Shown here piece by piece: positions 12,641-30,570 of a DNA stretch of 64,000 nt. The position numbers and the translations under genes were made by a program. Position 1 is the stretch's first letter. Every line of letters begins with the position of its first letter. The notes under the pieces were generated by a model that saw nothing but the letters and a program-made list of their open reading frames with translations, did not search any database and was not told the DNA's origin. Source of the DNA: an uncultured Alphaproteobacteria bacterium (GTDB taxonomy: Bacteria > Pseudomonadota > Alphaproteobacteria > Rhizobiales > Xanthobacteraceae); assembly GCA_963742975.1 (NCBI GenBank), contig CAVUNZ010000025.1:20230-84229 (forward strand). The letters are read 5' to 3'.

Positions 12641-12777
12641 GACGCCGCCGACCCTAGAAAGTCATGGTAAACAAAATGCTTACGCAGCGCCCGCCGCAAA
12701 CGAACCGTTAACCATAGCGATCTACGTTGGTTTTCAACGGTTTGGGGCCAGAATCTGGACGGCTTTTGGGGGGCGAT

Positions 12778-14355
12778 ATGTGCGGCATTGCGGTAGCCAT
12801 CGATTGGGATGGCGCTGAGACGGCGGTTCAACACCTGATCGCGGGCATGCTGCATCGCGGCGACGTCACCGATCCCCCGATCACGATCAGCAAGGGCACC
12901 GCGATGTGCACGCGCCGCCTGCGCATCGTCGATGCGCAGAACGGGATGCAGCCGAAGGCGTCTTTCGACGACCGCTTCCTCGTCGCCTTCAACGGCGAAA
13001 TCTACAATCACGTCGAGTTGCGGCGTGAACTCGAAGCGCGCGGCGTTAAGTTTCACAGCGGCTGCGACACCGAAGTGGTCGCCAATGTGCTGCGGGTCTT
13101 CGGCCCCACCGGGATCAAGCGGCTTTCCGGCATGTTTGCCTTTGTCGCACTCGACGTGATGACCGGTGAATTCCTCGCCGCGCGCGATCCGTTCGGCGTC
13201 AAGCCGCTCTATCTGATCCAGACGCCCGAAGCTCAGGCGCGCAAGGGCTTCTTGTTCTGCTCCGAGATCAAGCCGCTGTTGCAGGCGACCGAAAGCGGTG
13301 ACGTCATGTTGCTGCCGCCGGGCCATGCGCTGACGGGCAATTTTTTTGGGCGCTATTACAATCTGCCGTCCCCGGCACCGGCGAGCGTAGCTTGGGGCGC
13401 GGCTGTGCCGCAGGATCTGGACCGCATCCTTGCCGAAGCCGTGCGCGTGCGCGTGCCGCCGGATCTGCCGGCCGCAGCGCTGTTCAGCGGCGGCATCAAC
13501 TCGACCCTCATCATGCATTACGCGCGGCGCTTCTGCCCCGATATGCCCGGCTATATCGCCGTCGGCCGCGGCTCGCCCGATTATCTCTTCGCGCGGCATT
13601 ATGCCGAGGAGACCAGTCTCGATCTGCGCGAGGTCGCAATCGATACCCATGACGCAAAGACGCTGCCGCTCATCGCCACGGTGGTCGAGACCGTGGAGAC
13701 TTTCGAGCCGGCGGTGGTTCGGCCGAGCTTCCACACTTATCTGCTGTCGCAGCGCATTCATCAGGACGGTTTCCGCGTCGCCTTGTGCGGCGAGGGCGCC
13801 GATGAATTATTCGCCGGCTATTCGCCGCTCGAGCTTGCCTTTTCGCAGGCGAACGGTCAGGGCCGCTATCTGCAGGCGCAATGTCTGGGCATGATGCATC
13901 GCGCTAATCTGCAGCGGGTCGATCGCTGTTCGATGCATTTCCAGCTCGAAATCCGCGAACCGTTTCTCGATCAGGCCGTCGTCAACTATGCGGCAGGCCT
14001 TGATAAATCGGCTCTGGTGAAGCGTTCCGGCAATGCCGTCCCGGTCGGCAAGGCGCCGTTGCGCGCGATCTACGACCTTTATCCTTCGCAGCTGCCGATC
14101 AGCATCAGAGACCGCGACAAAATGCTGTTCAACGAAGGCGCCGACGGCGATGTGGAACGATCGGGCTGGCTCGATCTGTTCGAACAGGCGGTGTCGGACG
14201 CCGATTTCCGCGACGGCCAACGTCAATTCGCAGCCTTCGGCGTCACCACCAAAGAAGAGCTGTTCTATATTCGCGCGCTTGCCGCCAGGATGGATGTGAA
14301 CCGTATTCCGCATCTGCGCGGGCGGCTCCGCTTGGACATGCCGCGGGCCGCCTGA
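12778..14355 (+). CDS. asparagine synthase (glutamine-hydrolysing)-family amidotransferase
   Basis: Starts MCGI (Ntn Cys2), with NGEIYN and CDTEV in the GATase domain and a SGGINS PP-loop. ATG 12778 sits behind a G-rich RBS. Confidence 0.85.
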   Translation: MCGIAVAIDWDGAETAVQHLIAGMLHRGDVTDPPITISKGTAMCTRRLRIVDAQNGMQPKASFDDRFLVAFNGEIYNHVELRRELEARGVKFHSGCDTEVVANVLRVFGPTGIKRLSGMFAFVALDVMTGEFLAARDPFGVKPLYLIQTPEAQARKGFLFCSEIKPLLQATESGDVMLLPPGHALTGNFFGRYYNLPSPAPASVAWGAAVPQDLDRILAEAVRVRVPPDLPAAALFSGGINSTLIMHYARRFCPDMPGYIAVGRGSPDYLFARHYAEETSLDLREVAIDTHDAKTLPLIATVVETVETFEPAVVRPSFHTYLLSQRIHQDGFRVALCGEGADELFAGYSPLELAFSQANGQGRYLQAQCLGMMHRANLQRVDRCSMHFQLEIREPFLDQAVVNYAAGLDKSALVKRSGNAVPVGKAPLRAIYDLYPSQLPISIRDRDKMLFNEGADGDVERSGWLDLFEQAVSDADFRDGQRQFAAFGVTTKEELFYIRALAARMDVNRIPHLRGRLRLDMPRAA

Positions 14356-14516: not shown

Positions 14517-14882
14517 TTAGCGCTTGTCGCGCAGGCCGGCGGCAAGGCCGCGATTGATCTTGATGATCGATTTCAGATGGTCCGGCTTCGGCTTGGTCAT
14601 CATCGAGAAAGTCTCGGCCATGACATAGACGCCGAGCCGTCTGATGTTATCGCGAACCTGCTTCGGCAGCCTGTTGGTTTCGTTTGTCACTGCGTCGAGA
14701 AACACCGTCCACAGCCGGCGATTATAGAGCAGTGCTTCGTCGAGGCCGCGCGGCTTGTCAGACCAGGAATCGTGAACGGCCTGCAATTTCGCAGCGGCTT
14801 GCAGCAGCAAATTGGCCTCGAGCTCACGCGGCGACGCCGTCTCAACATTGGTCTTGGCATAGGCGTTGACGGCGTGACGCAT
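14517..14882 (-). CDS. flaF: FlaF flagellar regulator, if translated from the internal ATG
   Basis: Internal ATG 14882 is preceded by AAGGAA. 121 aa, FlaF-like N-terminus AYAKT..ASPRELEA. Confidence 0.6.
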   Translation of the reverse strand: MRHAVNAYAKTNVETASPRELEANLLLQAAAKLQAVHDSWSDKPRGLDEALLYNRRLWTVFLDAVTNETNRLPKQVRDNIRRLGVYVMAETFSMMTKPKPDHLKSIIKINRGLAAGLRDKR

Positions 14883-15257
14883 CTTCAGATGTTCCTTTTC
14901 GTAGGCAATAAGCTTGCGCGCTTCCTTTAAAGCTTTATACGGATCGCCTGTTAAGATTAGGTTGTTGATGCTTTCGATAAAGGGTTCGGCGCTCGGCGCG
15001 GCCTTGAGGAATTCGTCCGCCAGCCGGAAATAGAGCGCGTGGTGCTCTTTCGGGTTCTTGGCCGTGTAAATGAACTGGACAGCGAGATAAATGAGCTTCG
15101 CCAGGCTGTCGGCGCGGCCCAGCGTCATGATGTCCTTTTCGCGCAGGATACGAACCTGGCCTTCGATCTTCAGGCGCGTGCGGGAGCCGGCGTTGGTGAC
15201 AACGCAGTCGCCGAGCAGGATCCGCTCGTTCGGCTTGAGTTCGATTTTTAGGGCCAC
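14517..15257 (-). CDS. flbT: continuous ORF encoding FlbT (flagellin translational regulator) fused in frame to FlaF
   Basis: GTG 15257 lies behind AAGGA. (V)ALKIELKPNERILLGDCVVTN..ILREKDIMT..AKLIYLAVQ is the FlbT part. There is no stop before MRHAVNAYAKT..PRELEANLLL (the FlaF part). Confidence 0.7.
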   Translation of the reverse strand: MALKIELKPNERILLGDCVVTNAGSRTRLKIEGQVRILREKDIMTLGRADSLAKLIYLAVQFIYTAKNPKEHHALYFRLADEFLKAAPSAEPFIESINNLILTGDPYKALKEARKLIAYEKEHLKMRHAVNAYAKTNVETASPRELEANLLLQAAAKLQAVHDSWSDKPRGLDEALLYNRRLWTVFLDAVTNETNRLPKQVRDNIRRLGVYVMAETFSMMTKPKPDHLKSIIKINRGLAAGLRDKR

Positions 15258-15313
15258 GGGACAAATTCCTTGTTGCGAATCCTCGCCGCGCATCAGCATC
15301 GTTGCGCATCGTG

Positions 15314-15470: not shown

Positions 15471-16631
15471 TTAGCCGAACAGTTTGAGCACCGACTGGTT
15501 CGCCTGGTTGGCGATGGACAGTGCCGAGATTTCGAGCTGCTGCTGGGTCTGTTCGGTGAGCAGGTTGGCGCTCTCCTGGTTCTGGTCGGCGACGACCAGA
15601 TTGGTGGCGCCGGTCTGCAGCGTGTTGATCAGCGCCGTCTCGAAGGTCTGCCGGGTCGAGATGGTCGAGGCATTGGTGCCGAACGTCTCGGTCTGGCTCT
15701 GCACCGTCGCCAGCGCGGCATTGATGTTCGCCACCACGGTTGCGAGCTGATTGTCAGACTGGAAGGATGTCCCGCCCGAGCCGGCGATCGCCGACAGGCC
15801 GAGCCCTGCGGCATTGAAGGTTACGCCGGTGATGGTCAGCGAACTGGTGCCGGTCGGATTGAAATCGATGGTCAAGCTGTCGCCCTGCAACAGGTTGACG
15901 CCGTTATAGCCGGAGTCGGCGGCGAGCTGACTGATCTGCGTCAGGAGGCCGTTGTAGTTGCTCTGCAGCGTGCCGCGCGTCGAGCTCGAGCCGATGGCGA
16001 CAGTGTTGGTGGTGGAGTTGGTCGCCACACCCAGCGCCGCCGAAGTGGCACTGCCCACAACGGTGAAGCCGATCGGCGGCTCATTGGAGTTCAGGACCAG
16101 GTGACCCGAGCCGTCGTCGGTCGCGGTCACGATGCCGTTGCTGCCGAGCCCGGTCGTGCCGTTGATGTCGGCCTCGACTTCGCTCAGCGTCGCGCTGGCG
16201 GCGATCGTGACGTTGTAGGTCGACGAACCGACATCGATGCTGAGCGTGCCGGCGGCGAGGCTGACGTTGGCGGTGGTGAGGCCCAAGCTGGTCCCGGTGC
16301 CGGTCGTCGTGGCTGCTACGGTCCAGCTCGCGGACTGCGCTTGTTGCACTGTCGACAGCGCCTGCTGCAAGAGACTGGTCAGGCTGGTGAGGCCGTTGGT
16401 GGCTTGTTGGATGGTTGACGAGCCTTGACCGATCTGGTCGAGCAGCGCGCTCAATGAATTGGCGGTCTGCGTCAAGCTCTGCGAGGTGAAATAGGAGCTT
16501 GGATTGTCGGCGGCGGAGTTGACCTTCTTGCCGGTCGCCAAGGCTTCCTGGGTGGTCGTTAGATCGTTCGACGTCTGCTGCAATGACAGCAGATTCTGCC
16601 GAATGCCGGTAGTGAGAGTAATATCAGACAT
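15471..16631 (-). CDS. flagellin (386 aa)
   Basis: N-terminus MSDITLTTGIRQNLLSLQ..ALATGKKVNSAADNPSSYF and C-terminus ..LSIANQANQSVLKLFG. Confidence 0.95.
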   Translation of the reverse strand: MSDITLTTGIRQNLLSLQQTSNDLTTTQEALATGKKVNSAADNPSSYFTSQSLTQTANSLSALLDQIGQGSSTIQQATNGLTSLTSLLQQALSTVQQAQSASWTVAATTTGTGTSLGLTTANVSLAAGTLSIDVGSSTYNVTIAASATLSEVEADINGTTGLGSNGIVTATDDGSGHLVLNSNEPPIGFTVVGSATSAALGVATNSTTNTVAIGSSSTRGTLQSNYNGLLTQISQLAADSGYNGVNLLQGDSLTIDFNPTGTSSLTITGVTFNAAGLGLSAIAGSGGTSFQSDNQLATVVANINAALATVQSQTETFGTNASTISTRQTFETALINTLQTGATNLVVADQNQESANLLTEQTQQQLEISALSIANQANQSVLKLFG

Positions 16632-16886
16632 CGTTCCACCTTCGGGTTACAGGCCGTGCTGACTGCAAAGCACCAAACGTTCATTCGGTTCGAGTTCGAG
16701 CTCCGAGAGCACGGGCGAATCCTTGCCGCGGCCAACATGGTTACCGATTATAGTTAACGGAGAACTAATCAGACCGTACGGAATGGAACCGTCGGGCTAA
16801 AGGCTTGTCCTGAAAAGAAAAAAACGGAGCTTTCGCCCCGTTCGCAAACAGCAAAAAATACAGTTTGGCCGTCCCGACCGGCACGG

Positions 16887-16922
16887 CAAAAAGAAAAGCG
16901 GCGGGGCTTTGGCCCCGCCGCC
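16887..16922 (-). terminator. rho-independent terminator of flagellin gene 2
   Basis: Stem GCGGCGGGGC / GCCCCGCCGC followed on the minus strand by TTTTCTTTTT. Confidence 0.7.
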
Positions 16923-16950
16923 GTTACGTAAAGGCCTGTACCAGACTGCT

Positions 16951-18108
16951 TTAGCCGAACAGCTTGAGCACCGACTGGTTGGCTTGGTTGGCGATCGACA
17001 GCGCCGAGATTTCCAGCTGCTGCTGGGTCTGCTCGGTGAGCAAGTTGGCGCTTTCCACGTTCTGGTCGGCGACGACCAGGTTGGCGGCGCCGGTCTGCAG
17101 GGTGTTGATCACCGCGTTTTCGAAGCCCTGCCGGGTGCTGATGGTCGACGCGTTGGTGCCGAAGGTTTCGGCCTGCGTCTGCACGGTCGAGAGCGCCGCG
17201 TTGATGCTGGTGACCAGGCTCGAGAGCGTGCTGTCCGACTGGAACGACGTCGCGCCGGAGCCGGAGGTCGCCGACAGGCCGAGACCGGCGGCATTGAAGG
17301 TCACGCCGCTGATGGTCAGTGCGCTGGTGCCGGTCGGGTTGAAGTCGATGGTCAAGCTGTCGCCCTGCAACAGATTGACGCCGTTATAACCGGCGTCGGA
17401 CGCGAGCTGACTGACCTGCGTGAGCAGCGTGTTGAAGTTGCTCTGCAGCGTGCTGCGGGTCGAGCTGGAACCGATCGCGACGTTGTTGGTGGTCGAGTTG
17501 GTCGCCACGCCCAGCGCCGCCGAAGTGGCATTGCCCACAACGGTGAAGCCGATCGGCGCGTTGTTGGAGGTCAGGACCAGGTGACCCGAGCCGTCGTCGG
17601 TCGCGGTCACCGAGCCCGTGCTGCCGAGCCCGGTCGTGCCGTTGATGTCGGCCTCGACTTCGCTCAGCGTCGCGCTGGCGGCGATCGTGACGTTGTAGGT
17701 CGACGAACCGACATCGATGCTGAGCGTGCCGGCGGCGAGGCTGACGTTGGCGGTGGTGAGGCCCAAGCTGGTCCCGCTGGTCGTCGTGGCGGCGGTGGTC
17801 CAGTTCGAGGACTGCGCCTGTTGCACCGTCGACAAAGTCTGCTGCAGCAGGCTGGTGAGGCTGGTGAGGCCGTCGGTGGCCGCGTTGATGGTTTGCGAGC
17901 CCTGGCCAATCTGGTCGAGCAGCGAGCTCAGATTGTTGGCGCTCTGGGTCAAATTCTGCGAGGTGAAGTAGGAGCTCGGATTGTCGGCAGCGGAGTTGAC
18001 CTTCTTGCCGGTCGCCAGCGCTTCCTGAGTGGTGGTCAGGTCGTTGGACGTTTGCGTGAGGGCAAGCAGGTTGGACCGGATGCCCGAGGTTAAGGTGACG
18101 TCAGACAT
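16951..18108 (-). CDS. flagellin paralogue (385 aa)
   Basis: Collinear with the 15471-16631 protein and shares its N and C termini. Confidence 0.95.
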   Translation of the reverse strand: MSDVTLTSGIRSNLLALTQTSNDLTTTQEALATGKKVNSAADNPSSYFTSQNLTQSANNLSSLLDQIGQGSQTINAATDGLTSLTSLLQQTLSTVQQAQSSNWTTAATTTSGTSLGLTTANVSLAAGTLSIDVGSSTYNVTIAASATLSEVEADINGTTGLGSTGSVTATDDGSGHLVLTSNNAPIGFTVVGNATSAALGVATNSTTNNVAIGSSSTRSTLQSNFNTLLTQVSQLASDAGYNGVNLLQGDSLTIDFNPTGTSALTISGVTFNAAGLGLSATSGSGATSFQSDSTLSSLVTSINAALSTVQTQAETFGTNASTISTRQGFENAVINTLQTGAANLVVADQNVESANLLTEQTQQQLEISALSIANQANQSVLKLFG

Positions 18109-18484: not shown

Positions 18485-19309
18485 ATGTTGAAAATGCCAA
18501 CAACAGATGCCGGTGCTGCGCAATTGTCCGGCGTGGGATTTTCCGCGCCGCTCCAGCCGACGCCGCCGAGCGTCAATCTTGTCGTCGCCACCCCGTGTTT
18601 CGGTGGGCAAATCTCGGTCGTCTATGCGGCATCGCTGATGAAGCTGCAGAAACTGGTCCGCTCCTACCGCGACTTCGGCATCAAAACGCTGTTCAAGGAC
18701 GGTGACGCGCTTATCACCCGCGCTCGGGCGAGCCTGGTCGCGCAATTTCTCGACGATCCGAGCGCGACGCATCTTCTCTTCATCGACGCTGATATCGGCT
18801 TTGAGCCGCAGCAGGTGCTGCGCCTCATCGAATGCGGCGCCGACATGTGCGCTGCAGTCTATCCGATCAAGCGGATCGACTGGGACAAGGTCAAGGACAC
18901 GCTCGCAGCCGGCCGGCCCAATCCGGCGGCGGCGGCGCTGCAATATGTATTCGAAGTCGATGATCCCAATGCCGTGACCGAGAAGGCCGGATTCATCAAA
19001 GTCCGCTACGCCGGCACCGGGCTCCTGATGATCCGGCGCGAGGCGTTAGAACGTATGTGCGCGCATTATCCGGAGCTGCGCTTCAAGCACGACCACTCGC
19101 TCGATGCCGCGACCGCAAGCGACAACCGCTTCGCTTTGTTCGACACCATGATCGACGACGCGGGAATGTATCTGAGCGAGGATTTTGCTTTTTGCAGGCG
19201 CTGGACCGCCATGGGCGGCGAGATCTGGGCCGATCTCGACAGCAAGCTCCAGCATACCGGTCCGATGACGTTCAACGGCGATCTGTCATCGCAATTCATC
19301 GCAGCCTAG
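18485..19309 (+). CDS. putative GT-A-type glycosyltransferase (family not identified)
   Basis: 274 aa. The pattern ATPCFGG..ITRARASLVAQFL..THLLFIDADIGF (a DxD-like DAD after a beta strand) is typical of GT-A folds. The call comes from that pattern only. Confidence 0.4.
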   Translation: MLKMPTTDAGAAQLSGVGFSAPLQPTPPSVNLVVATPCFGGQISVVYAASLMKLQKLVRSYRDFGIKTLFKDGDALITRARASLVAQFLDDPSATHLLFIDADIGFEPQQVLRLIECGADMCAAVYPIKRIDWDKVKDTLAAGRPNPAAAALQYVFEVDDPNAVTEKAGFIKVRYAGTGLLMIRREALERMCAHYPELRFKHDHSLDAATASDNRFALFDTMIDDAGMYLSEDFAFCRRWTAMGGEIWADLDSKLQHTGPMTFNGDLSSQFIAA

Positions 19310-19324: not shown

Positions 19325-20110
19325 TCAGGCGATCAGATTGACCAGGCTGCCGCTGGCGCCGGAAGACGCCAGAAGCGACGCGGCGCTGGTGGCATTGTGT
19401 GTAAAGGTGCTCTCCAGGCCCGCGGTACTGCTCTTCGTCGAGGTCGAACTCGTGCTCGAACTGCTTGTGGTCGACGATGCGGTCGAAGCTGCGGGCTTGC
19501 TGGCCGGGGTGGGCTTGAAAGTCTGATTGCCGACAGCAAAGCCGATATTACTGGCATAGACGCCGTTGACGCTGATCTGATCGTTGGTGTTTTTGCTGGT
19601 AAGGACGATATTGCCCTTGCTGTTGAGCGTGGCGCTCACTTGGGCGTTGTCCGGCAGGTTGGTATTGATCGTGCTGAGCAGATTGCCGACCGTATCGCTG
19701 CCGGTCGAGGTAAAGGCCGTGGTTTTGCCGTTGGCGCTGACATAGACCGAGCCGCCTTGCGGTATGCCAAGCGTCGAGAGCGGCGTGCTCACCGAAACCG
19801 ACACCTTTCCGGTGCCGACCGCCGGCTTGGCCTTTGTCGCTGCTGCGGAGCTGGAGTTCGTGGAGGACGTCGTCGTTCCGGTTCCGCCGGTGAGGATGCT
19901 CTGAATTTCGGCAGTGATCTGGTTATTGGTGCGCGTCAGCGCTTTGCCGTTGGCAATCGACGCAAGGCCTTTGCCGAGATTGGTTTCGGCGGCGCCCATG
20001 GCGCTGATAAGGGAGTCCGTCGCCGCTAAGGACGAGCTCCAGCGTCCGGTGACCGAACCCCAGGAACTCGCGGCCGACTGCAAAAGCGCACCGATATTGC
20101 TGACGCTCAT
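19325..20110 (-). CDS. Ser/Thr-rich protein of unknown function carrying a flagellin/hook-type variable-domain module
   Basis: 261-aa ORF with no signal peptide. Long S/T tracts flank ..GKTTAFTSTGSDTVGNLLSTINTNLPDNAQVSATLNSKGNIVLTSKN.., which aligns with the flagellin central domain. Confidence 0.6.
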   Translation of the reverse strand: MSVSNIGALLQSAASSWGSVTGRWSSSLAATDSLISAMGAAETNLGKGLASIANGKALTRTNNQITAEIQSILTGGTGTTTSSTNSSSAAATKAKPAVGTGKVSVSVSTPLSTLGIPQGGSVYVSANGKTTAFTSTGSDTVGNLLSTINTNLPDNAQVSATLNSKGNIVLTSKNTNDQISVNGVYASNIGFAVGNQTFKPTPASKPAASTASSTTSSSSTSSTSTKSSTAGLESTFTHNATSAASLLASSGASGSLVNLIA

Positions 20111-20204
20111 TCCAACAATTACCTAGCCGGACCCACTGCCGCCCTGAAGCTTCATGCGCCTGGTTCGGTTAATATCCGGTATCGCCGCGTCTGGTTACCT
20201 TTGA

Positions 20205-20212
20205 TTAACCAT
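20205..20212 (+). promoter_or_regulatory. CtrA half-site TTAACCAT upstream of TPR-glycosyltransferase 1
   Basis: Exact 8-mer about 118 nt upstream of ATG 20330, in the spacer shared with the divergent Ser/Thr-rich gene. Confidence 0.35.
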
Positions 20213-20329
20213 CTTGGCCGACGCTGTTCCGGCGCGATAACGGCTGGCGGTTCGACGACAATAAGCTGCCGCGAAGGCCGGGGTCGCGCGCGTGCGATTT
20301 TGCCCGCCTGCCTTCCGGTGACGCCAGCC

Positions 20330-22846
20330 ATGAACGATCCCGCAAAGATGCGCCGCCCGCAGACGGTGCGCTCCATTCAAGAGGCGCTGGCGCTGCATCG
20401 GCAGGGCCGTCTCGAGGAAGCAGGGCGGATCTACGACTCGGTTCTTGCCGCCGATCCCAACGACTTCGACGCCTTGCATCTGGGCGGCGTGCTGCGTCAT
20501 CAGCAGGGCCGCTCGGCTGAAGCCCTGCGCCTGGTTGGCGCCGCGCTCAAGGCGCAGCCCGGATCGGCCGACGCGCTGGCGAATTACGGGGTCATTCTCG
20601 ACGCGCTCGAACGCCACGAGGAGGCGCTTGCGGCCTTCGAGAAACTGCTGGCCGTACGCGCCAAGGACGCAACCGCCCACTACAATCGCGGCAATGCGCT
20701 GAAGAAACTCGGCCGCTATGCCGAGGCGCTGGCAAGCTACGAGGAGGCGCTTGCGCTGGCGCCCGGCAATGTCGATGCGCTCTACAATCACGGTAACGCG
20801 CTCTCGGCGCTGGAACGGCACGCGAAGGCGCTTGCCGACTACGACAAAGTGCTGACACAGCGGCCGCGCCACGTGCAGGCGCATAATCGCCGCGCCAATA
20901 CGCTCGCGGCGCTCGGCCGGAACGAAGAGGCCCTCGCCGCCTATGACGCCGCTCTCGCCATCGAGCCAGCTCATGCCGAGGTGCTCAGCAACCGCAGCGT
21001 CACGCTTCTGAAACTCGACCGCGCGGATGCGGCGCTGGAAAGCTGCGAAAGCGCGCTGAAGGCGCGGCCGAATTATGCCGACGCGCTTTACAATCGCGGC
21101 AATGCTCTGCTCGCACAGATGCGGCTTGAGGAAGCGAGCCAGAGCTACGAAGCGGCGCTGACAGTCGAACCGCGCCGCCTCGATGCCTGGAACAATCTCG
21201 GCCTGGTTCTGTTTGCGCAAAAGAAACATGCCGAGGCGATCGCGAGTTACGATCGCGCGCTCGCGCTCGATCCGAACCACCTGCAAGCCCTGCACAACCG
21301 TGCCAATGCGCTGATCGGGCTGAAGTCCTTCGACGAGGCGCTCGCGGCCTGCGACCAGGTCCTCGCGCGCGAAGCGGACCATGTCGACGCGCTCAATAGC
21401 CGTGGCGTCGTCCTCGGCAAGCTCAAGCGTTATCAGGAAGCGCTCGAGACCTATGATCGGGCGCTGGCACTCAAGCCGAACCGTCTCGACATCGAGATCA
21501 ATCGCGGTGGCGCGCTGCTTGAGCTTGATCGTTTTGACGAGGCGCTGGCGAGCTTCGAATCCATCCTGATCCGCGATCCCGACCATGCCGGCGCCTGGAC
21601 CAATAGCGGCACGGTTCTGATCAAACTCAAACGGCCCCAAGAGGCGCTGGCGAAATACGACAAGGCGTTGGAGATCAGTCCCAACTACGCCCATGCCTTG
21701 ACCGTGCGCGGCGCTGCGCTGACGCTCTTGGACCGTAACGAGGAGGCGCTGCGCTGCCATGAACAGGCGCTTGCGCTCGAGCCGGACATGATCGCCGGAC
21801 ACATCAATCTCGGCAATACGCTCGGGATGATGGAACATATGGAGGAGGCGCTCGCCAGCTATGATAAGGCGCTTGCGCTCGAGCCGGAACATGCCGAGGC
21901 CAATTTCAACGCCGCCGTCACGCGGCTTTGCATGGGAGATTTTGAGAACGGCTGGAAGCAGTACGAATATCGCTGGAAGAAGAAGGGCATTGCGTGGCAG
22001 CCGTGGGAGTTCAAGCAGCCGGTGTGGCGCGGCAAGGAGGATCTGCACGGCAAGACGGTGTTGCTGCTCGCCGAACAAGGCCTGGGCGATACGCTCAACT
22101 TCATCCGCTACGCGCCGCTGGTCGCCGACCGCGGCGCAAAGGTTATTGTCGGCGTGCAGAAGCCGCTGAAGGAGCTTGCCGCCACCGTGCCCGGCGTCTC
22201 GGGTGTGCTGACCGACGGCGAGCCGCTGCCCGATTTTGACCTGCATTGCCCGATGCTCGGCCTGCCGGGTGCCTTTGCCACCGACCTTGCGACGATCCCC
22301 GCCAACATTCCTTATTTGCGGCCCTATCGCGACCGGATCGAGAAATGGCATCCGAGGCTGCCGCAAAACGGCCGGATGCGCATCGGCATCGTCTGGGCGG
22401 GCAACGGTTCGCATTTGAACGATCATCACCGTTCGATTGCGCTTGAGCGTTTTGCGCCACTGTTGTCGGTGCCGGGCATCGATTTCATCAGCCTGCAAAA
22501 GGATGTGAACGACGCGCAGGCAGTGATCCTCGACCGGCACGGCGTTCTGAACCTCGGCCGGCAATTCGACGACTTTGCCGATACCGCGGCGGTTCTCGCG
22601 ATGCTCGACCTTCTCATTGCGGTTGACACGTCAGTTGCTCATCTCGCCGGCGCCATGGGCAAGGCGGTCGCGCTCTTGATCCCGTTCGCGCCGGATTGGC
22701 GCTGGCTCCTTCATCGCACCGATACGCCCTGGTATCCGACCATGCGGCTGTTCCGGCAAAGTGCGGTCGGTGATTGGGACAGTCCGCTAGAGCAATTGCG
22801 CCAAGAGCTCAGCGATGCGGCGAACCGTCCCTCGAGGCGGGGATGA
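20330..22846 (+). CDS. TPR-repeat protein with C-terminal GT9/heptosyltransferase-like GT-B domain (FlmG-like architecture), paralogue 1
   Basis: About 17 TPR-like repeats, then EQGLGDTLNFIRYAPL, IPANIPYLRP, RIGIVWAGNGSHLNDHHRS and VDTSVAHLAGAMGKAVALLIP..PWYPTMRLFRQ. Confidence 0.8.
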   Translation: MNDPAKMRRPQTVRSIQEALALHRQGRLEEAGRIYDSVLAADPNDFDALHLGGVLRHQQGRSAEALRLVGAALKAQPGSADALANYGVILDALERHEEALAAFEKLLAVRAKDATAHYNRGNALKKLGRYAEALASYEEALALAPGNVDALYNHGNALSALERHAKALADYDKVLTQRPRHVQAHNRRANTLAALGRNEEALAAYDAALAIEPAHAEVLSNRSVTLLKLDRADAALESCESALKARPNYADALYNRGNALLAQMRLEEASQSYEAALTVEPRRLDAWNNLGLVLFAQKKHAEAIASYDRALALDPNHLQALHNRANALIGLKSFDEALAACDQVLAREADHVDALNSRGVVLGKLKRYQEALETYDRALALKPNRLDIEINRGGALLELDRFDEALASFESILIRDPDHAGAWTNSGTVLIKLKRPQEALAKYDKALEISPNYAHALTVRGAALTLLDRNEEALRCHEQALALEPDMIAGHINLGNTLGMMEHMEEALASYDKALALEPEHAEANFNAAVTRLCMGDFENGWKQYEYRWKKKGIAWQPWEFKQPVWRGKEDLHGKTVLLLAEQGLGDTLNFIRYAPLVADRGAKVIVGVQKPLKELAATVPGVSGVLTDGEPLPDFDLHCPMLGLPGAFATDLATIPANIPYLRPYRDRIEKWHPRLPQNGRMRIGIVWAGNGSHLNDHHRSIALERFAPLLSVPGIDFISLQKDVNDAQAVILDRHGVLNLGRQFDDFADTAAVLAMLDLLIAVDTSVAHLAGAMGKAVALLIPFAPDWRWLLHRTDTPWYPTMRLFRQSAVGDWDSPLEQLRQELSDAANRPSRRG

Positions 22847-24456
22847 GGACGGCGCAGGCGGAAGCAGAGCCGCCGCTGCCCAAGTCAAGCAACATTGCAC
22901 CTAACATCACGCAAGCTTTTGCGCATTATCAGCAAGGCCGGCTTGCGGACGCCGAGACGATCTGCAACGCGATCCTTGCCGCCGAGCCCGAACAGTTCGA
23001 CGCCCTGCATCTGCTTGGTCTGCTGCGCCATGCGCAGAAGCGTAACGCGGAGGCGCTGCAACTCGTCGGTGCAGTGCTCAAACGTGCGCCGCGATCCGCG
23101 GAAGTGCTGAGCAATTACGGACTCGTCCTTGCCGCGCTGAGCCGCCACGAGGAGGCATTGGCATGTTTCGACGAGGCGGTTCGCCACAGCGGGGACTATC
23201 TCAATGCACTGCGGAACCGCGCCGCCGCACTCAAATCTCTCGCGCGCGATGAAGAAGCGCTCGTCGCCTTCGAGGCGATCCTGGCAACGAAGGGCGACGA
23301 TATCGACGCGCTGAACGAATGCGGCGGCCTTCATATGCAACTCGGACAGCCCGATGCCGCGGTTGCCTGCTATGACAGAGCGCTGGCCGCGGCGCCGCGG
23401 GTGGTGGAGCTTCACGTCAACAAGGGCAGCGCACTCGCCACCGTGAACCGCTTTGCCGAAGCTTTGCAAAGTTTTACCGCCGCGATGACGATAGATCGGC
23501 AATGCGCCGACGCCCATCATCGGGCAAGCCTTATCCGCTTGCGGTCCGGCGACTTCAAGCGCGGCTGGCGTGACTACGAGTGGCGCTGGCGCACTCAGCG
23601 CACCGTGAAACGGCGAGAGGTCGCCGCGCCGTTGTGGCTGGGCGATCAGCCGATCCAAGGCAAAACCATATTGCTGCTCGCCGAGCAGGGCTTTGGCGAC
23701 ACCATCCATTTCGCCCGTTATGCGCCGCTCTTAGCCGCGCTCGGCGCGACTGTAATCCTCGATGTGCCATCGCCACTCAAGGAGATCGCGGCGAGCGTTC
23801 CCGGCGTGTCATGGGTGCTGGGTGATGGCGAACGGGCGCCGCCGATCGATTTTTATTGTCCGCTGATGAGCCTACCGCTCGCCTTCCAGACCGAGACCGC
23901 GACCATACCGGCGAACATTCCCTATATCCGCCCATCTGCGGAGCGCCTCGCGAAGTGGCGCGCCAGATTGCCGCGAAACGGCCGTCTGCGGATCGGCTTG
24001 TGCTGGGCCGGCAGCGCCACGCATCTGAACGATCATAATCGCTCCATCGCACTTGAGCGCCTTGCCGGGATTTTATCGCTGCCCAATCTCGACTTCATCA
24101 GCGTGCAAAAGGACGTCAGCGAGCCACAGGCCGCTTTCCTGCAGAGCTATAGTGTCGCTCAACTTGGCCAGAGTTTTGAGAATTTTGCCGACACGGCCGC
24201 AGCTCTTGCCGAGCTCGATCTTCTCGTTTCGGTCGACACGTCGGTCGCCCACCTGGCCGGCGCCATGGGCAAGGCGGTCGCGCTCTTACTGCCGTTGCCG
24301 GCGGAATGGCGGTGGCTGCTCGATCGCAGCGACAGTCCTTGGTATCCGAGCATGCGGTTGTTTCGGCAGATCGCGATCGGCGACTGGGATGGCCCGCTCG
24401 AGCAGCTCTATCGCGAGCTCAGCGCCGTCGCTGCGCGGCGTCCGGCAGCGTCCTAG
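22843..24456 (+). CDS. TPR + GT9-like glycosyltransferase, paralogue 2
   Basis: Its ATG overlaps the stop of paralogue 1 (ATGA at 22843-22846). It has the same C-terminal motifs (EQGFGDTIHFARYAPL, IPANIPYIRP, VDTSVAHLAGAMGKAVALLLP). Confidence 0.8.
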   Translation: MRTAQAEAEPPLPKSSNIAPNITQAFAHYQQGRLADAETICNAILAAEPEQFDALHLLGLLRHAQKRNAEALQLVGAVLKRAPRSAEVLSNYGLVLAALSRHEEALACFDEAVRHSGDYLNALRNRAAALKSLARDEEALVAFEAILATKGDDIDALNECGGLHMQLGQPDAAVACYDRALAAAPRVVELHVNKGSALATVNRFAEALQSFTAAMTIDRQCADAHHRASLIRLRSGDFKRGWRDYEWRWRTQRTVKRREVAAPLWLGDQPIQGKTILLLAEQGFGDTIHFARYAPLLAALGATVILDVPSPLKEIAASVPGVSWVLGDGERAPPIDFYCPLMSLPLAFQTETATIPANIPYIRPSAERLAKWRARLPRNGRLRIGLCWAGSATHLNDHNRSIALERLAGILSLPNLDFISVQKDVSEPQAAFLQSYSVAQLGQSFENFADTAAALAELDLLVSVDTSVAHLAGAMGKAVALLLPLPAEWRWLLDRSDSPWYPSMRLFRQIAIGDWDGPLEQLYRELSAVAARRPAAS

Positions 24457-24461: not shown

Positions 24462-24580
24462 ATTGTTTCAGATTAAATTATTTGTCGCTCTAGGATTTCG
24501 ATTGAGCATGACTCTTTCGGAAAGCCGGTTTCCACCCTCGGATCGAGTCCGAGGGCAGGCTTTTTCCGGATCATGCTCTA
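24462..24580 (+). repeat. MITE/REP-like element, full-length copy 2 (with extra internal hairpin)
   Basis: Same left arm TTGTTTCAGATT..GTCGCTCTAGGATTT and same right inverted repeat GAGCATGA..GGATCATGCTCTA. The terminal CTA is the flbY-like stop codon on the other strand. Confidence 0.85.
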
Positions 24581-26541: not shown

Positions 26542-26663
26542 CCGGAGCGGCGCGAGCAAGCCATTGAAATAAGTCAGATATTTTCCGCGGTCGCGGCACG
26601 CGCGAGGAGCAGGGCCAGCATCCCTTGCCGGTATGCGGCAATTCTTGCCGCCTTTACCGGGCG

Positions 26664-26671
26664 TTAACCAT
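26664..26671 (+). promoter_or_regulatory. CtrA half-site TTAACCAT upstream of fliX
   Basis: Exact 8-mer only 20 nt upstream of the fliX ATG. Confidence 0.35.
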
Positions 26672-26690
26672 AACCGGCACACTTTATATT

Positions 26691-28034: not shown

Positions 28035-29651
28035 ATGGCAAGCGGCTCGTCACCGCACTTTTCTTCTTCGCGCAATCTGTCGCGGATGCTGCGGCGCGCG
28101 CTGCAGGCCCATGAGGCCGGCGATGGCGCCAAGGCGAGCCGGCTCTATGCCGAAATACTGCAATACGAACCGGACAATTTTGACGCGCTGCATGGCCTCG
28201 GCAAGCTGCACTGCGACTGCGGCCGTTTTGATACCGCGCTCGCTCTCATTCAGCGGGCGCTGACGATCGATCCGCGCCGCGCCGACGGATTTTCAAGTCT
28301 CGGCCTCACTTTCTATTATCTGCGCCGCCTCAACGACGCGCTGACAAGTTTTAACGAGGGCCTGCGTCTTGACCCGGATAATGCCGAACTGTTGAACCAG
28401 CGCGGCGTGGCGCTGCTCGAGCTTGGCCGTTCCCACGAGGCGCTCGCAAGTTTCGAGCAGGCGCTGGCCGCCGAGCCCAGGTCTCTCGATGCGCTCGGCA
28501 ATTACGGCAATGCGCTGCTGAAACTCAATCGTCCGTCCGATGCGATTGCCGCTTACGATCGGGCGCTGGCGATTGCCCCGCATAATGCCGGGCTTCTTAC
28601 CAATCGCGCCATCGCGCTGCGCAAGCTCGATCGGCCGCACGAAGCGCTGATGAGCGTCACGCGCGCGCTCGCAAACAAGCCGGATTTTGCCCAGGCGCGG
28701 TTCGTCGACAGCCTGGTGCGATTGACCCTGGGCGATTTTCGCGCCGGATGGCGCGCCTATGAATCGCGCTGGCAGGGCAGAAATCTTGCCGCGCAACGCC
28801 GCGATTTTACAGCGCCGTTATGGCTGGGTGGAAGCTCGCTCGAGGGCAAAACCATTCTGCTCCATGCCGAGCAGGGTTTTGGCGACACTCTCCAATTCGT
28901 GCGCTACGCGCCGCTTGTGGCGGGGCATGGCGCCAAGGTCGTTCTTGAAGTGCAGCGCGAACTGGTTCGCCTGTTGTCGGGCCTCGACGGCATCGACGCC
29001 GTGATCGGCCGCGGCGAGACCTTGCCGTCTTTCGACGCGCATTGTCCGCTGCTGAGCCTGCCGCTCGCCTTCGGCACCGAACCGGCAACGGTTCCGGCGC
29101 CCGTGCCGTACGTCGCGGCGGTCGGCGACGATATTCGGCTTTGGCGTGAACTCCTTCCGCAAAGGCCGCGGCCGCGCGTCGGCGTGGTGTGGTCCGGCGA
29201 TCCTAGTCATGACAACGACATCAACCGGTCGATGCGCCTTAAGGCGATAGCGCCGGTATTCGACGTGCCGGACGTCGATTTCGTCAGTCTGCAATACAAG
29301 ATTCGCGACGAGGACGTCGCAGTGCTGCGGGATTTCCCGAACCTGTTTCGGCTCGAGCGCAGCTTCCGCGATTTTTCAGACACCGCGGCCGTTGTTGCAA
29401 GCTTGGATGCGGTAATCTCGGTCGATAGCGCGGTGGCGCATCTCGCCGGCGCGATGGGCAAGGAGCTGTTCGTGCTACTGCCGCTCGGCGCCGATTTCCG
29501 CTGGCTGCGCGAGCGCGCCGACAGCCCGTGGTATCCGACGGCGCGATTGCTGCGGCAAACGCAATTCGGCGATTGGGGCAGCGTGATTGAATCGCTCGCA
29601 GCGGAGCTGCGCGCGCGGTTTAGTCCGGCGGCCCGCAAGTTGTCGGCGTGA
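28035..29651 (+). CDS. TPR + GT9-like glycosyltransferase, paralogue 3
   Basis: N-terminal ..PDNFDALHGLGKL and TPRs, then EQGFGDTLQFVRYAPL, VPAPVPYV and VDSAVAHLAGAMGKELFVLLP..PWYPTARLLRQ. The start could instead be ATG 28086. Confidence 0.8.
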   Translation: MASGSSPHFSSSRNLSRMLRRALQAHEAGDGAKASRLYAEILQYEPDNFDALHGLGKLHCDCGRFDTALALIQRALTIDPRRADGFSSLGLTFYYLRRLNDALTSFNEGLRLDPDNAELLNQRGVALLELGRSHEALASFEQALAAEPRSLDALGNYGNALLKLNRPSDAIAAYDRALAIAPHNAGLLTNRAIALRKLDRPHEALMSVTRALANKPDFAQARFVDSLVRLTLGDFRAGWRAYESRWQGRNLAAQRRDFTAPLWLGGSSLEGKTILLHAEQGFGDTLQFVRYAPLVAGHGAKVVLEVQRELVRLLSGLDGIDAVIGRGETLPSFDAHCPLLSLPLAFGTEPATVPAPVPYVAAVGDDIRLWRELLPQRPRPRVGVVWSGDPSHDNDINRSMRLKAIAPVFDVPDVDFVSLQYKIRDEDVAVLRDFPNLFRLERSFRDFSDTAAVVASLDAVISVDSAVAHLAGAMGKELFVLLPLGADFRWLRERADSPWYPTARLLRQTQFGDWGSVIESLAAELRARFSPAARKLSA

Positions 29652-30539: not shown

Positions 30540-30570
30540 CGTACTAACCTCTCACTTTCGCAACTGACAT

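What the first reader, a model, noticed from the sequence alone, without database searches (positions are those of the whole stretch)
20330..24456. Tandem, translationally coupled TPR + GT9-like glycosyltransferase pair beside the flagellin genes (FlmG-like flagellin glycosyltransferase candidates)
Two adjacent ORFs (838 and 537 aa) have the same bipartite plan. Each has an N-terminal TPR array, and both open with ..QGRL..AE......LAA.P..FDALHL.G.L. Each also has a C-terminal module of about 330 aa with shared motifs: EQG(L/F)GDT..F.RYAPL, IPANIPY(L/I)RP, WAG...HLNDH.RSIALER, DFIS.QKDV, FADTAA.LA.LDLL..VDTSVAHLAGAMGKAVALL.P, and PWYP.MRLFRQ...GDWD.PLEQL. I read that module as a GT-B / heptosyltransferase-like (GT9) fold. 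The second ATG overlaps the first stop (ATGA at 22843-22846). The pair lies between the flagellin locus and the flgI operon, downstream of a TTAACCAT half-site. In Caulobacter the TPR + glycosyltransferase protein FlmG glycosylates flagellins. Here there are three such paralogues, including 28035-29651, but no nonulosonic-acid (pse/leg/neuB-type) biosynthesis gene anywhere in the window. Donor sugar and substrate specificity are therefore open. Possible substrates are the two flagellins, the hook, and the Ser/Thr-rich orphan protein. Paralogue 1 has roughly twice as many TPRs as the other two, which suggests a different client.
Basis: partly seen in the sequence, partly recalled or inferred. 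Interest (0 to 1): 0.72.

Follow-up and report, generated by a model that had tools for sequence, protein, structure and literature searches.

The report
Three FlmG-like flagellin glycosyltransferase genes
Two overlapping genes, plus a third nearby, in the flagellar gene cluster of a soil alphaproteobacterium encode distant relatives of FlmG, the Caulobacter enzyme that attaches sugars to flagellin; this extends the enzyme class to another bacterial order and hints that it uses a different sugar there.

Summary
P1 (20330-22846, 838 aa) and P2 (22843-24456, 537 aa) overlap by ATGA, and P3 (28035-29651, 538 aa) lies nearby. Each has a TPR array (15, 6 and 6 repeats) followed by a C-terminal domain of about 300 aa.

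An AlphaFold model of that domain (pLDDT 86) is a GT-B fold. Its best PDB matches are GT9 heptosyltransferases and the protein O-heptosyltransferase TibC.

I recovered a Caulobacter-type FlmG using a published primer. The three proteins are collinear homologues of it (24-26% identity, E down to 7e-40).

In eight related loci, flagellin, a GT-A-like gene, a Ser/Thr-rich gene and a P1-type gene lie in the same order. All but one of these loci continue into flgJ-flgI. A CtrA-type TTAACCAT site upstream of P1 is kept in four orthologous loci.

New points:
- The window family keeps the GT9 donor motif VDTSVAH (103/103 sequences), which the FlmG clade has replaced (0/89). The donor is therefore probably not Pse or Leg.
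- A conserved GT-A-like gene, a CmcI-type methyltransferase gene and an AsnB-like gene flank the flagellins.
- The GT domain belongs to a superfamily of about 46,000 clusters that is almost entirely uncharacterised.

No function was tested.

The parts
20111..20329 (+). Promoter/leader region of the P1-P2 operon, with a CtrA-type half-site TTAACCAT at 20205-20212
   Evidence: TTAACCAT occurs 6 times in the window against 0.37 expected. All six sites are at or just upstream of gene starts; five of those genes are flagellar or flagellin-linked (asnB-like, P1, fliX, flgF, fliL) and the sixth gene (ORF 44374) was not annotated. The block GGTTACNTTTGRTTAACCATCTTGSCCGAC is kept upstream of the P1 orthologues in L001, L002, L003 and L006. 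The same octamer lies 25 nt upstream of flmG in L008. Caulobacter flmG is activated directly by CtrA (PMC7591256).
20330..22846 (+). P1, 838 aa: 15 TPRs (to about nt 21934) plus a GT9-like GT-B domain (21935-22846). Candidate catalytic and donor residues are D587 (EQGLGD), R701, and D766/T767/H771 (VDTSVAH)
   Evidence: Orthologues are 95/86/80/73/69% identical in L001/L002/L003/L009/L006.
22843..24456 (+). P2, 537 aa: 6 TPRs plus a GT domain from nt 23548. Its start overlaps the P1 stop (ATGA). Key residues are D286, R400, D465, H470
   Evidence: It forms its own orthogroup in the tree.
24535..24565 (+). Terminator-like hairpin plus T-run between P2 and the convergent flgN-like gene
   Evidence: 9-bp stem, 6 GC pairs. 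This is a consensus match only, and the number of such matches in the region is no higher than in shuffled sequence.
28035..29651 (+). P3, 538 aa: third paralogue (6 TPRs plus GT domain from nt 28731) between dksA and flgH. Key residues are D284, R398, D464, H469
   Evidence: Orthologues occupy the same slot in L001, L002, L007 and L009.
18485..19309 (+). Conserved GT-A-like protein of 274 aa with an invariant D101-A-D103 (DxD) motif; a candidate second glycosyltransferase of the island
   Evidence: No Pfam, NCBIfam or PDB sequence hit. AF2 pLDDT is 72. Foldseek matches are the LH3 glycosyltransferase domain (E 2e-7), STIV A197, COLGALT1, Mnn9 and SpsA. It sits in the same position in 8 loci.
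19325..20110 (-). Ser/Thr-rich (34.5%) protein of 261 aa with no family match, transcribed divergently from P1; a possible extra acceptor
   Evidence: It is conserved (85% down to 37-67% identity, partly fragmented) at the same position in 8 loci.
15471..18108 (-). Two flagellin genes (386 and 385 aa; 29% and 31% Ser+Thr), the presumed acceptors
14517..15299 (-). FlbT and FlaF domains in one ORF (flagellin translation regulator and secretion chaperone)
   Evidence: The same arrangement is seen in L006 and L007.
11714..12640 (-). CmcI/rhamnosyl O-methyltransferase-like protein (308 aa), a candidate glycan-modifying enzyme
   Evidence: PF04989 E 1.7e-15. NCBIfam RhmsylMtase scores 53 bits, far below its cut-off of 400. 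Conserved in L001, L003 and L005.
12708..14355 (+). AsnB-like glutamine amidotransferase with TTAACCAT at 12708-12715 just upstream
   Evidence: Conserved next to flbT/flaF in L001, L002, L003, L005 and L006.

Best explanation
P1, P2 and P3 are most likely cytoplasmic protein O-glycosyltransferases of the FlmG class.

Proposed mechanism, by analogy with FlmG (all steps inferred):
- The N-terminal TPR array binds unfolded or chaperone-free flagellin, or another flagellar export substrate.
- The C-terminal GT9-like GT-B domain transfers a sugar from a soluble nucleotide sugar to Ser/Thr hydroxyls of the surface-exposed central part of the protein before export. The Asp of EQGxGD would act as general base, and the R-S and VDTSVAH motifs would hold the donor.

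P1 and P2 appear to be made together. They share a 4-nt overlap and one upstream region that carries a conserved CtrA-type site, so they would be expressed with the early flagellar genes.

The three enzymes are old paralogues. They probably divide the work by site, sugar or client.

Together with the GT-A-like protein, the CmcI-like methyltransferase and the AsnB-like amidotransferase, they form a flagellin glycosylation island that probably builds something other than a plain Pse/Leg monosaccharide.

What is shown: the architecture, the fold, homology to FlmG, the synteny and the motif conservation. What is inferred: the enzyme activity, the acceptor, the donor and the timing.
For: Architecture and fold:
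- TPR plus a GT-B domain. The best structural matches are GT9 enzymes and TibC, which glycosylates proteins.

Homology to FlmG:
- Full-length collinear homology to a Caulobacter-type FlmG.
- Family-specific motifs are shared: GW..YE.R at the TPR/GT junction, EQGLGD, and PWYP..R.F..W.

Identity of the L008 reference as FlmG:
- It matches the flmG primer NK-74 exactly.
- Residue 309 starts SDQDLKG. The paper's GT fragment starts at residue 309, and its primer encodes SGQDLRG.
- A flbT homologue lies next to it.
- Its closest named relatives are 'flagellar protein FlbA [Caulobacter vibrioides]'.

Predicted active-site residues:
- The Asp of EQGxGD is invariant in 103/103 sequences. D, T and H of VDTSVAH are kept in 103/103, 102/103 and 103/103.
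- VDTSVAH aligns with WaaC 260-VDTGLSH-266.

Synteny:
- Flagellin, the GT-A-like gene, the Ser/Thr-rich gene and a P1-type gene lie in the same order in 8 independent loci, down to about 46% P1 identity. Seven of the eight continue into the flgN-like gene and flgI. P2 is also present in most of them.
- Three separate orthogroups predate these genera.

Regulation:
- The TTAACCAT footprint is conserved, and Caulobacter flmG is CtrA-activated.

Acceptors:
- The flagellins are 29-31% Ser+Thr.

Functional precedent:
- In FlmG the TPR domain binds flagellin and the GT domain sets the donor (PMC7591256; bioRxiv 10.1101/2022.03.25.485807).

Related island:
- In L010 a TPR-GT is followed by radical-SAM, cytidylyltransferase, methyltransferase and GT1 genes.
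Against: - No experiment was done and no glycan is known for this lineage.
- Identity to FlmG is only 24-26%. The GT domain belongs to a superfamily of about 46,000 clusters at 50% identity, found in many phyla and contexts. Orthology and shared function therefore cannot be assumed. A FlmG-clade homologue also occurs outside any flagellar locus (L011).
- No donor-sugar biosynthesis pathway was identified in the window.
- The Pfam and NCBIfam GT9 models are only touched below threshold.
- The alignment of D587 with WaaC D13 is weak (E 0.12).
- Plant NDH-PSI subunits with this fold also appear among the structural matches. As far as I know they are not enzymes.
Confidence: 0.62

Rival explanations
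1. They are ordinary FlmG orthologues that transfer pseudaminic or legionaminic acid, with the pse/leg genes located elsewhere in the genome.
For: They share the FlmG architecture, homology, locus and CtrA-type site. In Caulobacter the Pse genes lie in separate operons away from flmG (PMC7591256), so a 64-kb window cannot exclude them. The adjacent AsnB-like amidotransferase could make an acetamidino-type nonulosonate, as PseA is thought to do in Campylobacter (my own knowledge, not tested).
Against: At the position that aligns with the WaaC sugar-nucleotide motif, the window family has VDTSVAH (103/103). The FlmG clade never has the Asp (0/89) and has Asn at the Thr and His positions (88/89 and 83/89). 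The residue after the catalytic Asp also differs: T/S/V against Glu in 89/89. No NeuB, aminotransferase, dehydratase or cytidylyltransferase family was found in the ORFs scanned in the window, whereas L008 has a cytidylyltransferase-like ORF directly after flmG (read by eye).
Confidence: 0.2
2. They are protein glycosyltransferases whose main clients are not the flagellins but other flagellar or secreted proteins, such as the Ser/Thr-rich orphan at 19325-20110, FlgL, FlgK or the hook. Alternatively each paralogue has a different client.
For: There are three ancient paralogues with different TPR arrays, 15 against 6 repeats. The Ser/Thr-rich protein (34.5% S+T) is always adjacent to P1 and divergent from it. 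FlgL is 25% Ser+Thr.
Against: The only characterised relative modifies flagellins, and its TPR domain binds several flagellins (PMC7591256). The flagellins here are themselves very rich in Ser and Thr. Nothing tested here separates the possible clients.
Confidence: 0.12
3. They are non-catalytic TPR scaffolds or regulators of flagellar assembly that merely retain a glycosyltransferase-like fold.
For: GT9-like folds occur as subunits of the plant NDH-PSI supercomplex (9grx, 7f9o, 7wff); as far as I know these are not enzymes. TPR proteins are common assembly factors. The GT9 HMMs score below threshold.
Against: The predicted catalytic Asp and the donor-binding motif are invariant or nearly so in 103/103 family members. 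That level of conservation is expected of active enzymes. The homologue FlmG is catalytically sufficient for flagellin glycosylation (PMC7591256).
Confidence: 0.04
4. They are envelope (LPS or polysaccharide) heptosyltransferase-type enzymes that lie in the flagellar cluster by chance.
For: Some sources name homologues 'ADP-heptose:LPS heptosyltransferase'. The closest folds are WaaC and WaaF.
Against: The genes sit in the same slot in 8 loci across several genera, under a conserved flagellar-type promoter motif. The fused TPR domain and the specific homology to FlmG point to a protein acceptor. No other LPS-core genes are nearby.
Confidence: 0.02

Closest known systems
FlmG (formerly FlbA) of Caulobacter crescentus and Brevundimonas subvibrioides, the FlmG class of flagellin O-glycosyltransferases
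   Same: It has an N-terminal TPR array plus a C-terminal GT-B domain and is collinear with the window proteins (24-26% identity, E to 7e-40). It shares the junction motif GW..YE.R, EQGLGD, and PWYP..R.F..W. It lies in the flagellin/flbT/flaF neighbourhood. A TTAACCAT site lies upstream.
   Different: Identity is only about 25% and the window proteins form a distinct clade. The donor-pocket motif is VDTSVAH here and x-N-A-x-x-N in FlmG. There are three paralogues, two of them overlapping, rather than one gene. P1 carries 15 TPRs. No linked Pse/Leg genes were found. The lineage is Hyphomicrobiales (GTDB Xanthobacteraceae), whereas the literature calls FlmG 'confined to the Caulobacterales' (bioRxiv 10.1101/2023.12.03.569772).
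CAZy GT9 LPS heptosyltransferases (E. coli WaaC/HepI 2GT1/2H1H/6DFE, WaaF 1PSW, Veillonella 3TOV)
   Same: These are the best structural matches (E 2e-8 to 1e-5, TMq 0.53-0.62). The motif VDT(G/S)xxH is shared (hhalign), as is a G-D at the end of the first strand.
   Different: The sequence models stay below threshold and there is no PDB sequence hit. The window proteins have a fused TPR domain and lie in a flagellar rather than an LPS context. The acceptor is presumably a protein.
TibC/AAH (BAHT) autotransporter O-heptosyltransferases (4RAP, 4RB4)
   Same: They have a GT9-like GT-B fold and glycosylate Ser residues of a secreted protein in the cytoplasm using a soluble nucleotide sugar. They match structurally at E about 1e-5.
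   Different: BAHTs are iron-binding dodecamers without TPRs, and their clients are autotransporters. No sequence similarity was detected.
OGT/GT41 (TPR plus GT-B O-GlcNAc transferases, e.g. Xanthomonas 2VSN) and the large TPR-containing flagellin glycosyltransferases of Pseudomonas (FgtA/Fgt1; my own knowledge)
   Same: The logic is the same: a TPR domain recognises the substrate and is fused to a GT-B catalytic domain acting on Ser/Thr in the cytoplasm.
   Different: The structural match to 2VSN is weak (E 2e-3, TMq 0.31). The catalytic domain here is GT9-like, not GT41.
Maf (MAF_flag10) flagellin glycosyltransferases
   Same: They are flagellar-locus enzymes that O-glycosylate flagellin before export, and some carry TPRs.
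   Different: Maf has a GT-A-type sialyltransferase-like domain and is unrelated in fold to the GT-B domain here.

Membership tests
FlmG class of flagellin glycosyltransferases | Two-domain plan: N-terminal TPR array plus C-terminal GT-B domain | tested here: met
   Pfam TPR hits; 34-residue proline periodicity; AF2 GT-B model and Foldseek matches.
FlmG class of flagellin glycosyltransferases | Sequence homology to FlmG over both domains | tested here: met
   P3 26% over 545 aa, E 7e-40. P2 24% over 494 aa, E 3e-28. P1 GT domain 25% over 322 aa, E 1e-19. All against the Caulobacter-type FlmG in L008. Family-specific motifs are shared. The reference is an orthologue from a metagenome, not the NA1000 protein itself (one search found no match to a second primer).
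FlmG class of flagellin glycosyltransferases | Encoded with the flagellin/flaF/flbT genes and expressed from a CtrA-dependent promoter | tested here: met
   Context. The TTAACCAT site is enriched and phylogenetically conserved. CtrA binding itself was not tested.
FlmG class of flagellin glycosyltransferases | Donor is CMP-pseudaminic or CMP-legionaminic acid; a Pse/Leg pathway is present | tested here: inconclusive
   None of the main ORFs scanned in the 64-kb window matched a Pse/Leg family, but the rest of the genome could not be searched. The donor-pocket motif differs from the FlmG clade.
FlmG class of flagellin glycosyltransferases | FlmG-clade residues at the predicted donor site (x-N-A-x-x-N; Glu after the catalytic Asp) | tested here: not met
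   Window family: D-T-S-V-A-H in 103/103, 102/103 and 103/103 for D, T and H. FlmG clade: D 0/89, N 88/89, N 83/89, Glu 89/89.
FlmG class of flagellin glycosylation | [quoted passage not shown] | not testable with these tools
   Needs two-hybrid or pull-down assays, deletions and heterologous reconstitution.
CAZy GT9 / Pfam PF01075 heptosyltransferases | Match to the family sequence model above its curated threshold | tested here: not met
   P3 scores 19.2 bits against a gathering score of 22. P1 and P2 have no hit. NCBIfam heptsyl_trn_I scores 17-18 bits against 185.
CAZy GT9 / Pfam PF01075 heptosyltransferases | GT-B fold closest to GT9 structures | tested here: met
   Foldseek top hits are 3tov, 6dfe, 1psw, 2gt1 and 2h1h (E 2e-8 to 1e-5).
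CAZy GT9 / Pfam PF01075 heptosyltransferases | Catalytic Asp after strand 1 (WaaC D13) and the D-T-x-x-x-H donor motif (WaaC D261/T262/H266; the roles of these residues are from my own knowledge of the WaaC structures) | tested here: met
   VDTSVAH aligns with WaaC VDTGLSH (hhalign). KTVLLLAEQGLGD aligns with MRVLIVKTSSMGD (weak, E 0.12). The WaaC sequence was verified against 2GT1.
CAZy GT9 / Pfam PF01075 heptosyltransferases | ADP-heptose donor and LPS-core acceptor | not testable with these tools
   No gmhA, hldE or gmhB-type gene was recognised in the window. The donor is unknown.
GT41 O-GlcNAc transferases | GT41-type catalytic domain | tested here: not met
   Only a weak structural match to 2VSN (E 2e-3, TMq 0.31). 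No Pfam GT41 hit.

The most novel reading that the evidence does not exclude
The Xanthobacteraceae trio may be a separate branch of the FlmG class that has kept the ancestral GT9-type donor pocket. On this reading it uses an ADP- or NDP-linked sugar (heptose-like or hexose-like) rather than a CMP-nonulosonate. Working with the GT-A-like enzyme, the CmcI-like methyltransferase and the AsnB-like amidotransferase, it would build a previously undescribed, non-sialic-acid glycan on flagellin. The 15-TPR and 6-TPR paralogues would address different sites or clients. By extension, the roughly 46,000-cluster TPR-GT superfamily, including cyanobacterial giants with 2-6 GT domains, would be a very large and unexplored class of cytoplasmic protein O-glycosyltransferases.
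Probability: 0.3. Interest if true: 0.72.

Novelty: new variant of a known kind. Interest (0 to 1): 0.5.

Why it matters
FlmG is the only characterised member of its class, and the literature I could search describes it as restricted to Caulobacterales.

This locus shows homologous TPR-GT enzymes, in triplicate, fixed in the flagellin locus of the group that GTDB calls Xanthobacteraceae. As far as I know, that family includes abundant soil and plant-associated genera such as Bradyrhizobium. I found no report of flagellin glycosylation in this group in the literature I could search.

It gives a concrete, testable handle on three questions:
- How donor specificity is coded in this GT-B domain, by comparing DTSVAH with xNAxxN.
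- How TPR arrays of different length select clients.
- What the very large family of 'tetratricopeptide repeat protein' annotations actually does.

Flagellin glycans also affect filament assembly, phage adsorption and recognition by plant immunity. The modification could therefore matter for the ecology of these bacteria.

Tried and rejected
- PDB sequence searches gave nothing useful. I tried the P1 GT domain, the family profile and a 68-aa motif fragment. Only fold comparison linked the domain to GT9.
- hhalign in global mode against WaaC failed (followed the failed run). Local mode aligned the C-terminal donor motif convincingly, but the N-terminal half only weakly.
- The first metagenome scan, with the internal flmG primer (TTCCAGATTCCTGGCGTCCGCT), found nothing. 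The start-codon primer found one contig. The FlmG reference is therefore an orthologue, not the NA1000 sequence.
- The exact-sequence cluster look-up for that protein returned no name. Names ('FlbA [Caulobacter]') came only from its homologues.
- The single genome-contig scan returned only three close relatives. I could not check whole genomes for pse/leg or ADP-heptose genes.
- A GT41/OGT-type domain was considered and rejected because the structural match is weak.
- Chance co-location with the flagellar genes was rejected because the synteny is conserved.
- The mirror ORF 20195..22564(-) was rejected on codon-position GC.
- Literature searches found nothing relevant on flagellin glycosylation in Bradyrhizobium, Rhodopseudomonas, Nitrobacter or Afipia, or on FlmG in Hyphomicrobiales.
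- The Ser/Thr-rich and FlgN-like ORFs gave no significant family hits.

Full report
**1. The observation**

The two + strand ORFs are real. From the ATG at 20330 the first gives 838 aa (P1). From the ATG at 22843 the second gives 537 aa (P2). P1 ends ...CGG GGA TGA and P2 starts at the ATG formed by GG**A TG**A, with a GAGG 6-9 nt upstream. The same 4-nt overlap is present in three related loci.

Third-position GC supports these frames and not the long mirror ORF on the minus strand. P1 and P2 are 47% identical over the whole length of P2 (E 9e-160). The third paralogue P3 (28035-29651, 538 aa) is 50% identical to P1 in the C-terminal domain.

Pfam finds only TPR families above threshold. A proline recurs every 34 residues from position 43 to 519 in P1, which gives 15 repeats. 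P2 and P3 have six each.

The neighbours are as described:

| Coordinates | Strand | Gene |
|---|---|---|
| 6059-11661 | + | FlgE, FlgK, FlgL |
| 14517-15299 | - | FlbT/FlaF |
| 15471-16631, 16951-18108 | - | two flagellins |
| 20330-24456 | + | P1, P2 |
| 24578-25030 | - | FlgN-like ORF |
| 25027-25359 | - | rod-binding FlgJ-like |
| 25356-26465 | - | FlgI |
| 26625-27101 | + | FliX |
| 27361-27861 | + | DksA |
| 28035-29651 | + | P3 |
| 29793-33410 | - | FlgH, FlgA, FlgG, FlgF |

**2. The C-terminal domain**

Sequence models barely touch this domain. Glyco_transf_9 scores 19.2 bits in P3 against a gathering score of 22, and NCBIfam heptosyltransferase I scores about 18 bits. PDB sequence searches find nothing.

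An AlphaFold2 model built on a 39-sequence alignment is confident (pLDDT 85.7, pTM 0.85). It shows two Rossmann-like halves. Foldseek against the PDB returns these matches:
- The GT9 protein 3TOV (E 2e-8, TMq 0.61).
- E. coli WaaC and WaaF.
- The autotransporter O-heptosyltransferase TibC.
- GT9-like subunits of the plant NDH-PSI supercomplex.

GT41 OGT (2VSN) matches only weakly. 'GT9-like GT-B fold' is therefore supported. Membership of the curated GT9 family is not.

**3. Comparison with FlmG**

FlmG of Caulobacter crescentus is 596 aa, with TPR residues 1-313 and GT-B residues 309-596. The TPR domain binds flagellins and the GT domain sets Pse or Leg specificity (PMC7591256; bioRxiv 10.1101/2022.03.25.485807).

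I had no FlmG sequence, so I took primer NK-74 from supplementary table S3 of the eLife paper and scanned the metagenome collection. One contig matched (L008). It encodes a 598-aa protein. Four points identify it as FlmG:
- It starts MSRKSALENSA.
- Residue 309 begins SDQDLKG. The paper's GT-fragment primer encodes SGQDLRG at residue 309.
- A flbT homologue lies immediately upstream.
- Its closest named relatives are 'flagellar protein FlbA [Caulobacter vibrioides / sp.]' at 71-74% identity. As far as I know, FlbA is the older name of FlmG.

It is an orthologue rather than the NA1000 protein, because a second primer did not match.

Against this protein:
- P3 aligns over 545 residues (26%, E 7e-40).
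- P2 aligns over 494 residues (24%, E 3e-28).
- The GT domain of P1 alone aligns at E 1e-19.

I then compared 103 GT domains of the window family with 89 of the FlmG clade. They share motifs that GT9 enzymes lack: GW..YE.R at the TPR/GT junction, EQGLGD, and PWYP..R.F......W near the C-terminus. The window proteins are therefore true, though distant, members of the same TPR-GT lineage as FlmG.

**4. Genomic context beyond the window**

The closest genomes are MAGs labelled uncultured Alphaproteobacteria or Xanthobacteraceae (P1 95%, 86% and 80% identical). They keep the whole arrangement.

More distant homologues were picked only by similarity of the GT domain (58-68% identical). They fall in the same slot between the flagellin genes and flgJ-flgI (L005, L006, L007, L009).

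Across eight loci the order flagellin, 18485-type gene, Ser/Thr-rich gene, P1-type gene is conserved. Seven of the eight continue into the FlgN-like gene and flgI; in L010 the TPR-GT is followed by other genes instead. P2 is present in most loci. P3 sits before flgH in at least four loci. A neighbour-joining tree shows that P1, P2 and P3 are three orthogroups older than these genera.

In L010 the TPR-GT is followed by radical-SAM, cytidylyltransferase-like, methyltransferase and GT1 genes, which looks like a typical glycosylation island. Not every homologue is flagellar. A FlmG-clade protein in L011 lies among unrelated genes.

**5. Regulation**

Each site is at or just upstream of a gene start:

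| Site | Strand | Gene downstream |
|---|---|---|
| 12708 | + | asnB-like |
| 20205 | + | P1 |
| 26664 | + | fliX |
| 33431 | - | flgF |
| 33596 | + | fliL |
| 44345 | + | ORF at 44374, not annotated (overlaps a full TTAA-N7-TTAA) |

Upstream of P1 the block GGTTACNTTTGRTTAACCATCTTGSCCGAC is conserved in L001, L002, L003 and the more distant L006. The same octamer lies 25 nt upstream of flmG in L008. In Caulobacter, flmG, flmA and neuB are activated directly by CtrA.

A terminator-like hairpin follows P2 at 24535-24555, although such matches are no more frequent in the region than in shuffled sequence. P1-P2 therefore looks like a two-gene operon of the early flagellar regulon.

**6. The donor question**

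The main ORFs I scanned in the window showed no neuB-, pse- or leg-type family. That alone is weak evidence, because the Caulobacter genes are dispersed.

A more informative observation comes from the motif that aligns with WaaC 260-VDTGLSH-266 (hhalign; WaaC sequence verified against 2GT1). From my knowledge of the WaaC structures, that motif contacts ADP-heptose. The counts are:

| Position | Window family (n=103) | FlmG clade (n=89) |
|---|---|---|
| Asp of VDTSVAH | D 103/103 | D 0/89 (A, S or P instead) |
| Thr of VDTSVAH | T 102/103 | N 88/89 |
| His of VDTSVAH | H 103/103 | N 83/89 |
| Residue after the EQGxGD Asp | T, S or V | E 89/89 |
| EQGxGD Asp itself | invariant | invariant |

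The invariant Asp aligns, weakly, with WaaC D13. The window enzymes look catalytically competent, and they probably bind a different class of donor from the Pse- and Leg-specific FlmGs. This is an inference.

**7.

- ORF 18485-19309 (274 aa) has no Pfam, NCBIfam or PDB sequence match. It is highly conserved, with 5,280 homologues, the best 120 of them 74-97% identical. Its AF2 model (pLDDT 72) matches GT-A glycosyltransferases: the LH3 GT domain (E 2e-7), STIV A197, COLGALT1, Mnn9 and SpsA. It has an invariant D-A-D motif.
- ORF 11714-12640(-) has a CmcI/rhamnosyl-O-methyltransferase domain (PF04989, E 1.7e-15).
- ORF 12727-14355 is an AsnB-like glutamine amidotransferase with a TTAACCAT site just upstream.

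The last two are conserved next to flbT/flaF in several loci. The flagellins are 29% and 31% Ser+Thr, and the orphan at 19325-20110(-) is 34.5%.

**8. Size of the family**

An exhaustive profile search found 45,864 clusters at 50% identity with E <= 1e-3, and 26,242 with E <= 1e-30. The top scorers are proteins of 1,000-3,100 aa with two to six copies of the GT domain. They come from Oscillatoriales cyanobacteria, Ramlibacter and Usitatibacteraceae, and all are named only 'tetratricopeptide repeat protein'.

The tandem, overlapping P1-P2 pair is thus the split form of an arrangement that is fused in other lineages. This breadth cuts both ways. It makes the superfamily interesting. It also means that the function here rests on the flagellar context and the FlmG precedent, not on family membership alone.

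**9. Verdict**

The proteins most likely are FlmG-class cytoplasmic O-glycosyltransferases acting on flagellin, and perhaps on other flagellar export substrates, as part of a conserved glycosylation island.

Compared with FlmG they differ in five respects: a different clade, a different order, triplication, 15-TPR and 6-TPR forms, and a GT9-type donor motif.

The literature I could search describes FlmG as confined to Caulobacterales. It contains nothing on this family in Hyphomicrobiales or on flagellin glycosylation in this group. No function was tested here. The donor, the acceptor sites and the division of labour among the paralogues remain open.

Noticed in passing
window 18485-19309 (+): Highly conserved 274-aa 'hypothetical' protein with no Pfam, NCBIfam or PDB sequence hit. 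Its AF2 model matches GT-A glycosyltransferases (LH3, STIV A197, COLGALT1, Mnn9, SpsA), and it has an invariant D-A-D motif. It always lies between the flagellin genes and the TPR-GT genes.
   Followed up: yes
window 11714-12640 (-) and 12708-14355 (+): A CmcI/rhamnosyl-O-methyltransferase-like gene and an AsnB-like amidotransferase lie divergently between flgL and flbT/flaF. The amidotransferase has a TTAACCAT site just upstream. Both are conserved in related loci and may modify the flagellin glycan.
   Followed up: partly
window 12708, 20205, 26664, 33431(-), 33596, 44345: TTAACCAT occurs 6 times against 0.37 expected, always at or just upstream of a gene start, five of them flagellar or flagellin-linked. 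Full TTAA-N7-TTAA sites are at 38134 and 44334. This looks like a CtrA-type flagellar regulon.
   Followed up: partly
window 14517-15299 (-): FlbT and FlaF domains are encoded in a single 260-aa ORF with no stop codon between them. The same is seen in L006 and L007. As far as I know they are separate genes in Caulobacter.
   Followed up: no
window 19325-20110 (-): A 261-aa protein with 34.5% Ser+Thr and no family match is conserved next to P1 in 8 loci and transcribed divergently from it. Its codon-position GC is unusual (0.44/0.61/0.77). It could be a secreted flagellar protein or a further glycosylation target.
   Followed up: partly
window 38238-42332 (+): A 1,364-aa ORF inside the flagellar cluster has only faint TPR hits, and a TTAA-N7-TTAA site lies about 100 nt upstream. 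Its function is unknown.
   Followed up: no
L010 9462-14805: In a related genome the TPR-GT gene is followed by two radical-SAM genes, a cytidylyltransferase-like gene, a Methyltransf_21 gene, a GT1 gene and a DUF5672 gene, instead of flgJ-flgI. This is a variant glycosylation island.
   Followed up: no
P0363-P0512: The GT domain occurs 2-6 times per polypeptide in giant proteins of 1,000-3,100 aa from cyanobacteria and betaproteobacteria, all annotated only as 'tetratricopeptide repeat protein'. About 46,000 clusters at 50% identity match the profile.
   Followed up: partly
window 24578-25030 (-): A 150-aa ORF upstream of the flgJ-like gene has only a faint FlgN hit (E 0.07). It is conserved in seven of the eight related loci (absent from L010).
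   Followed up: no
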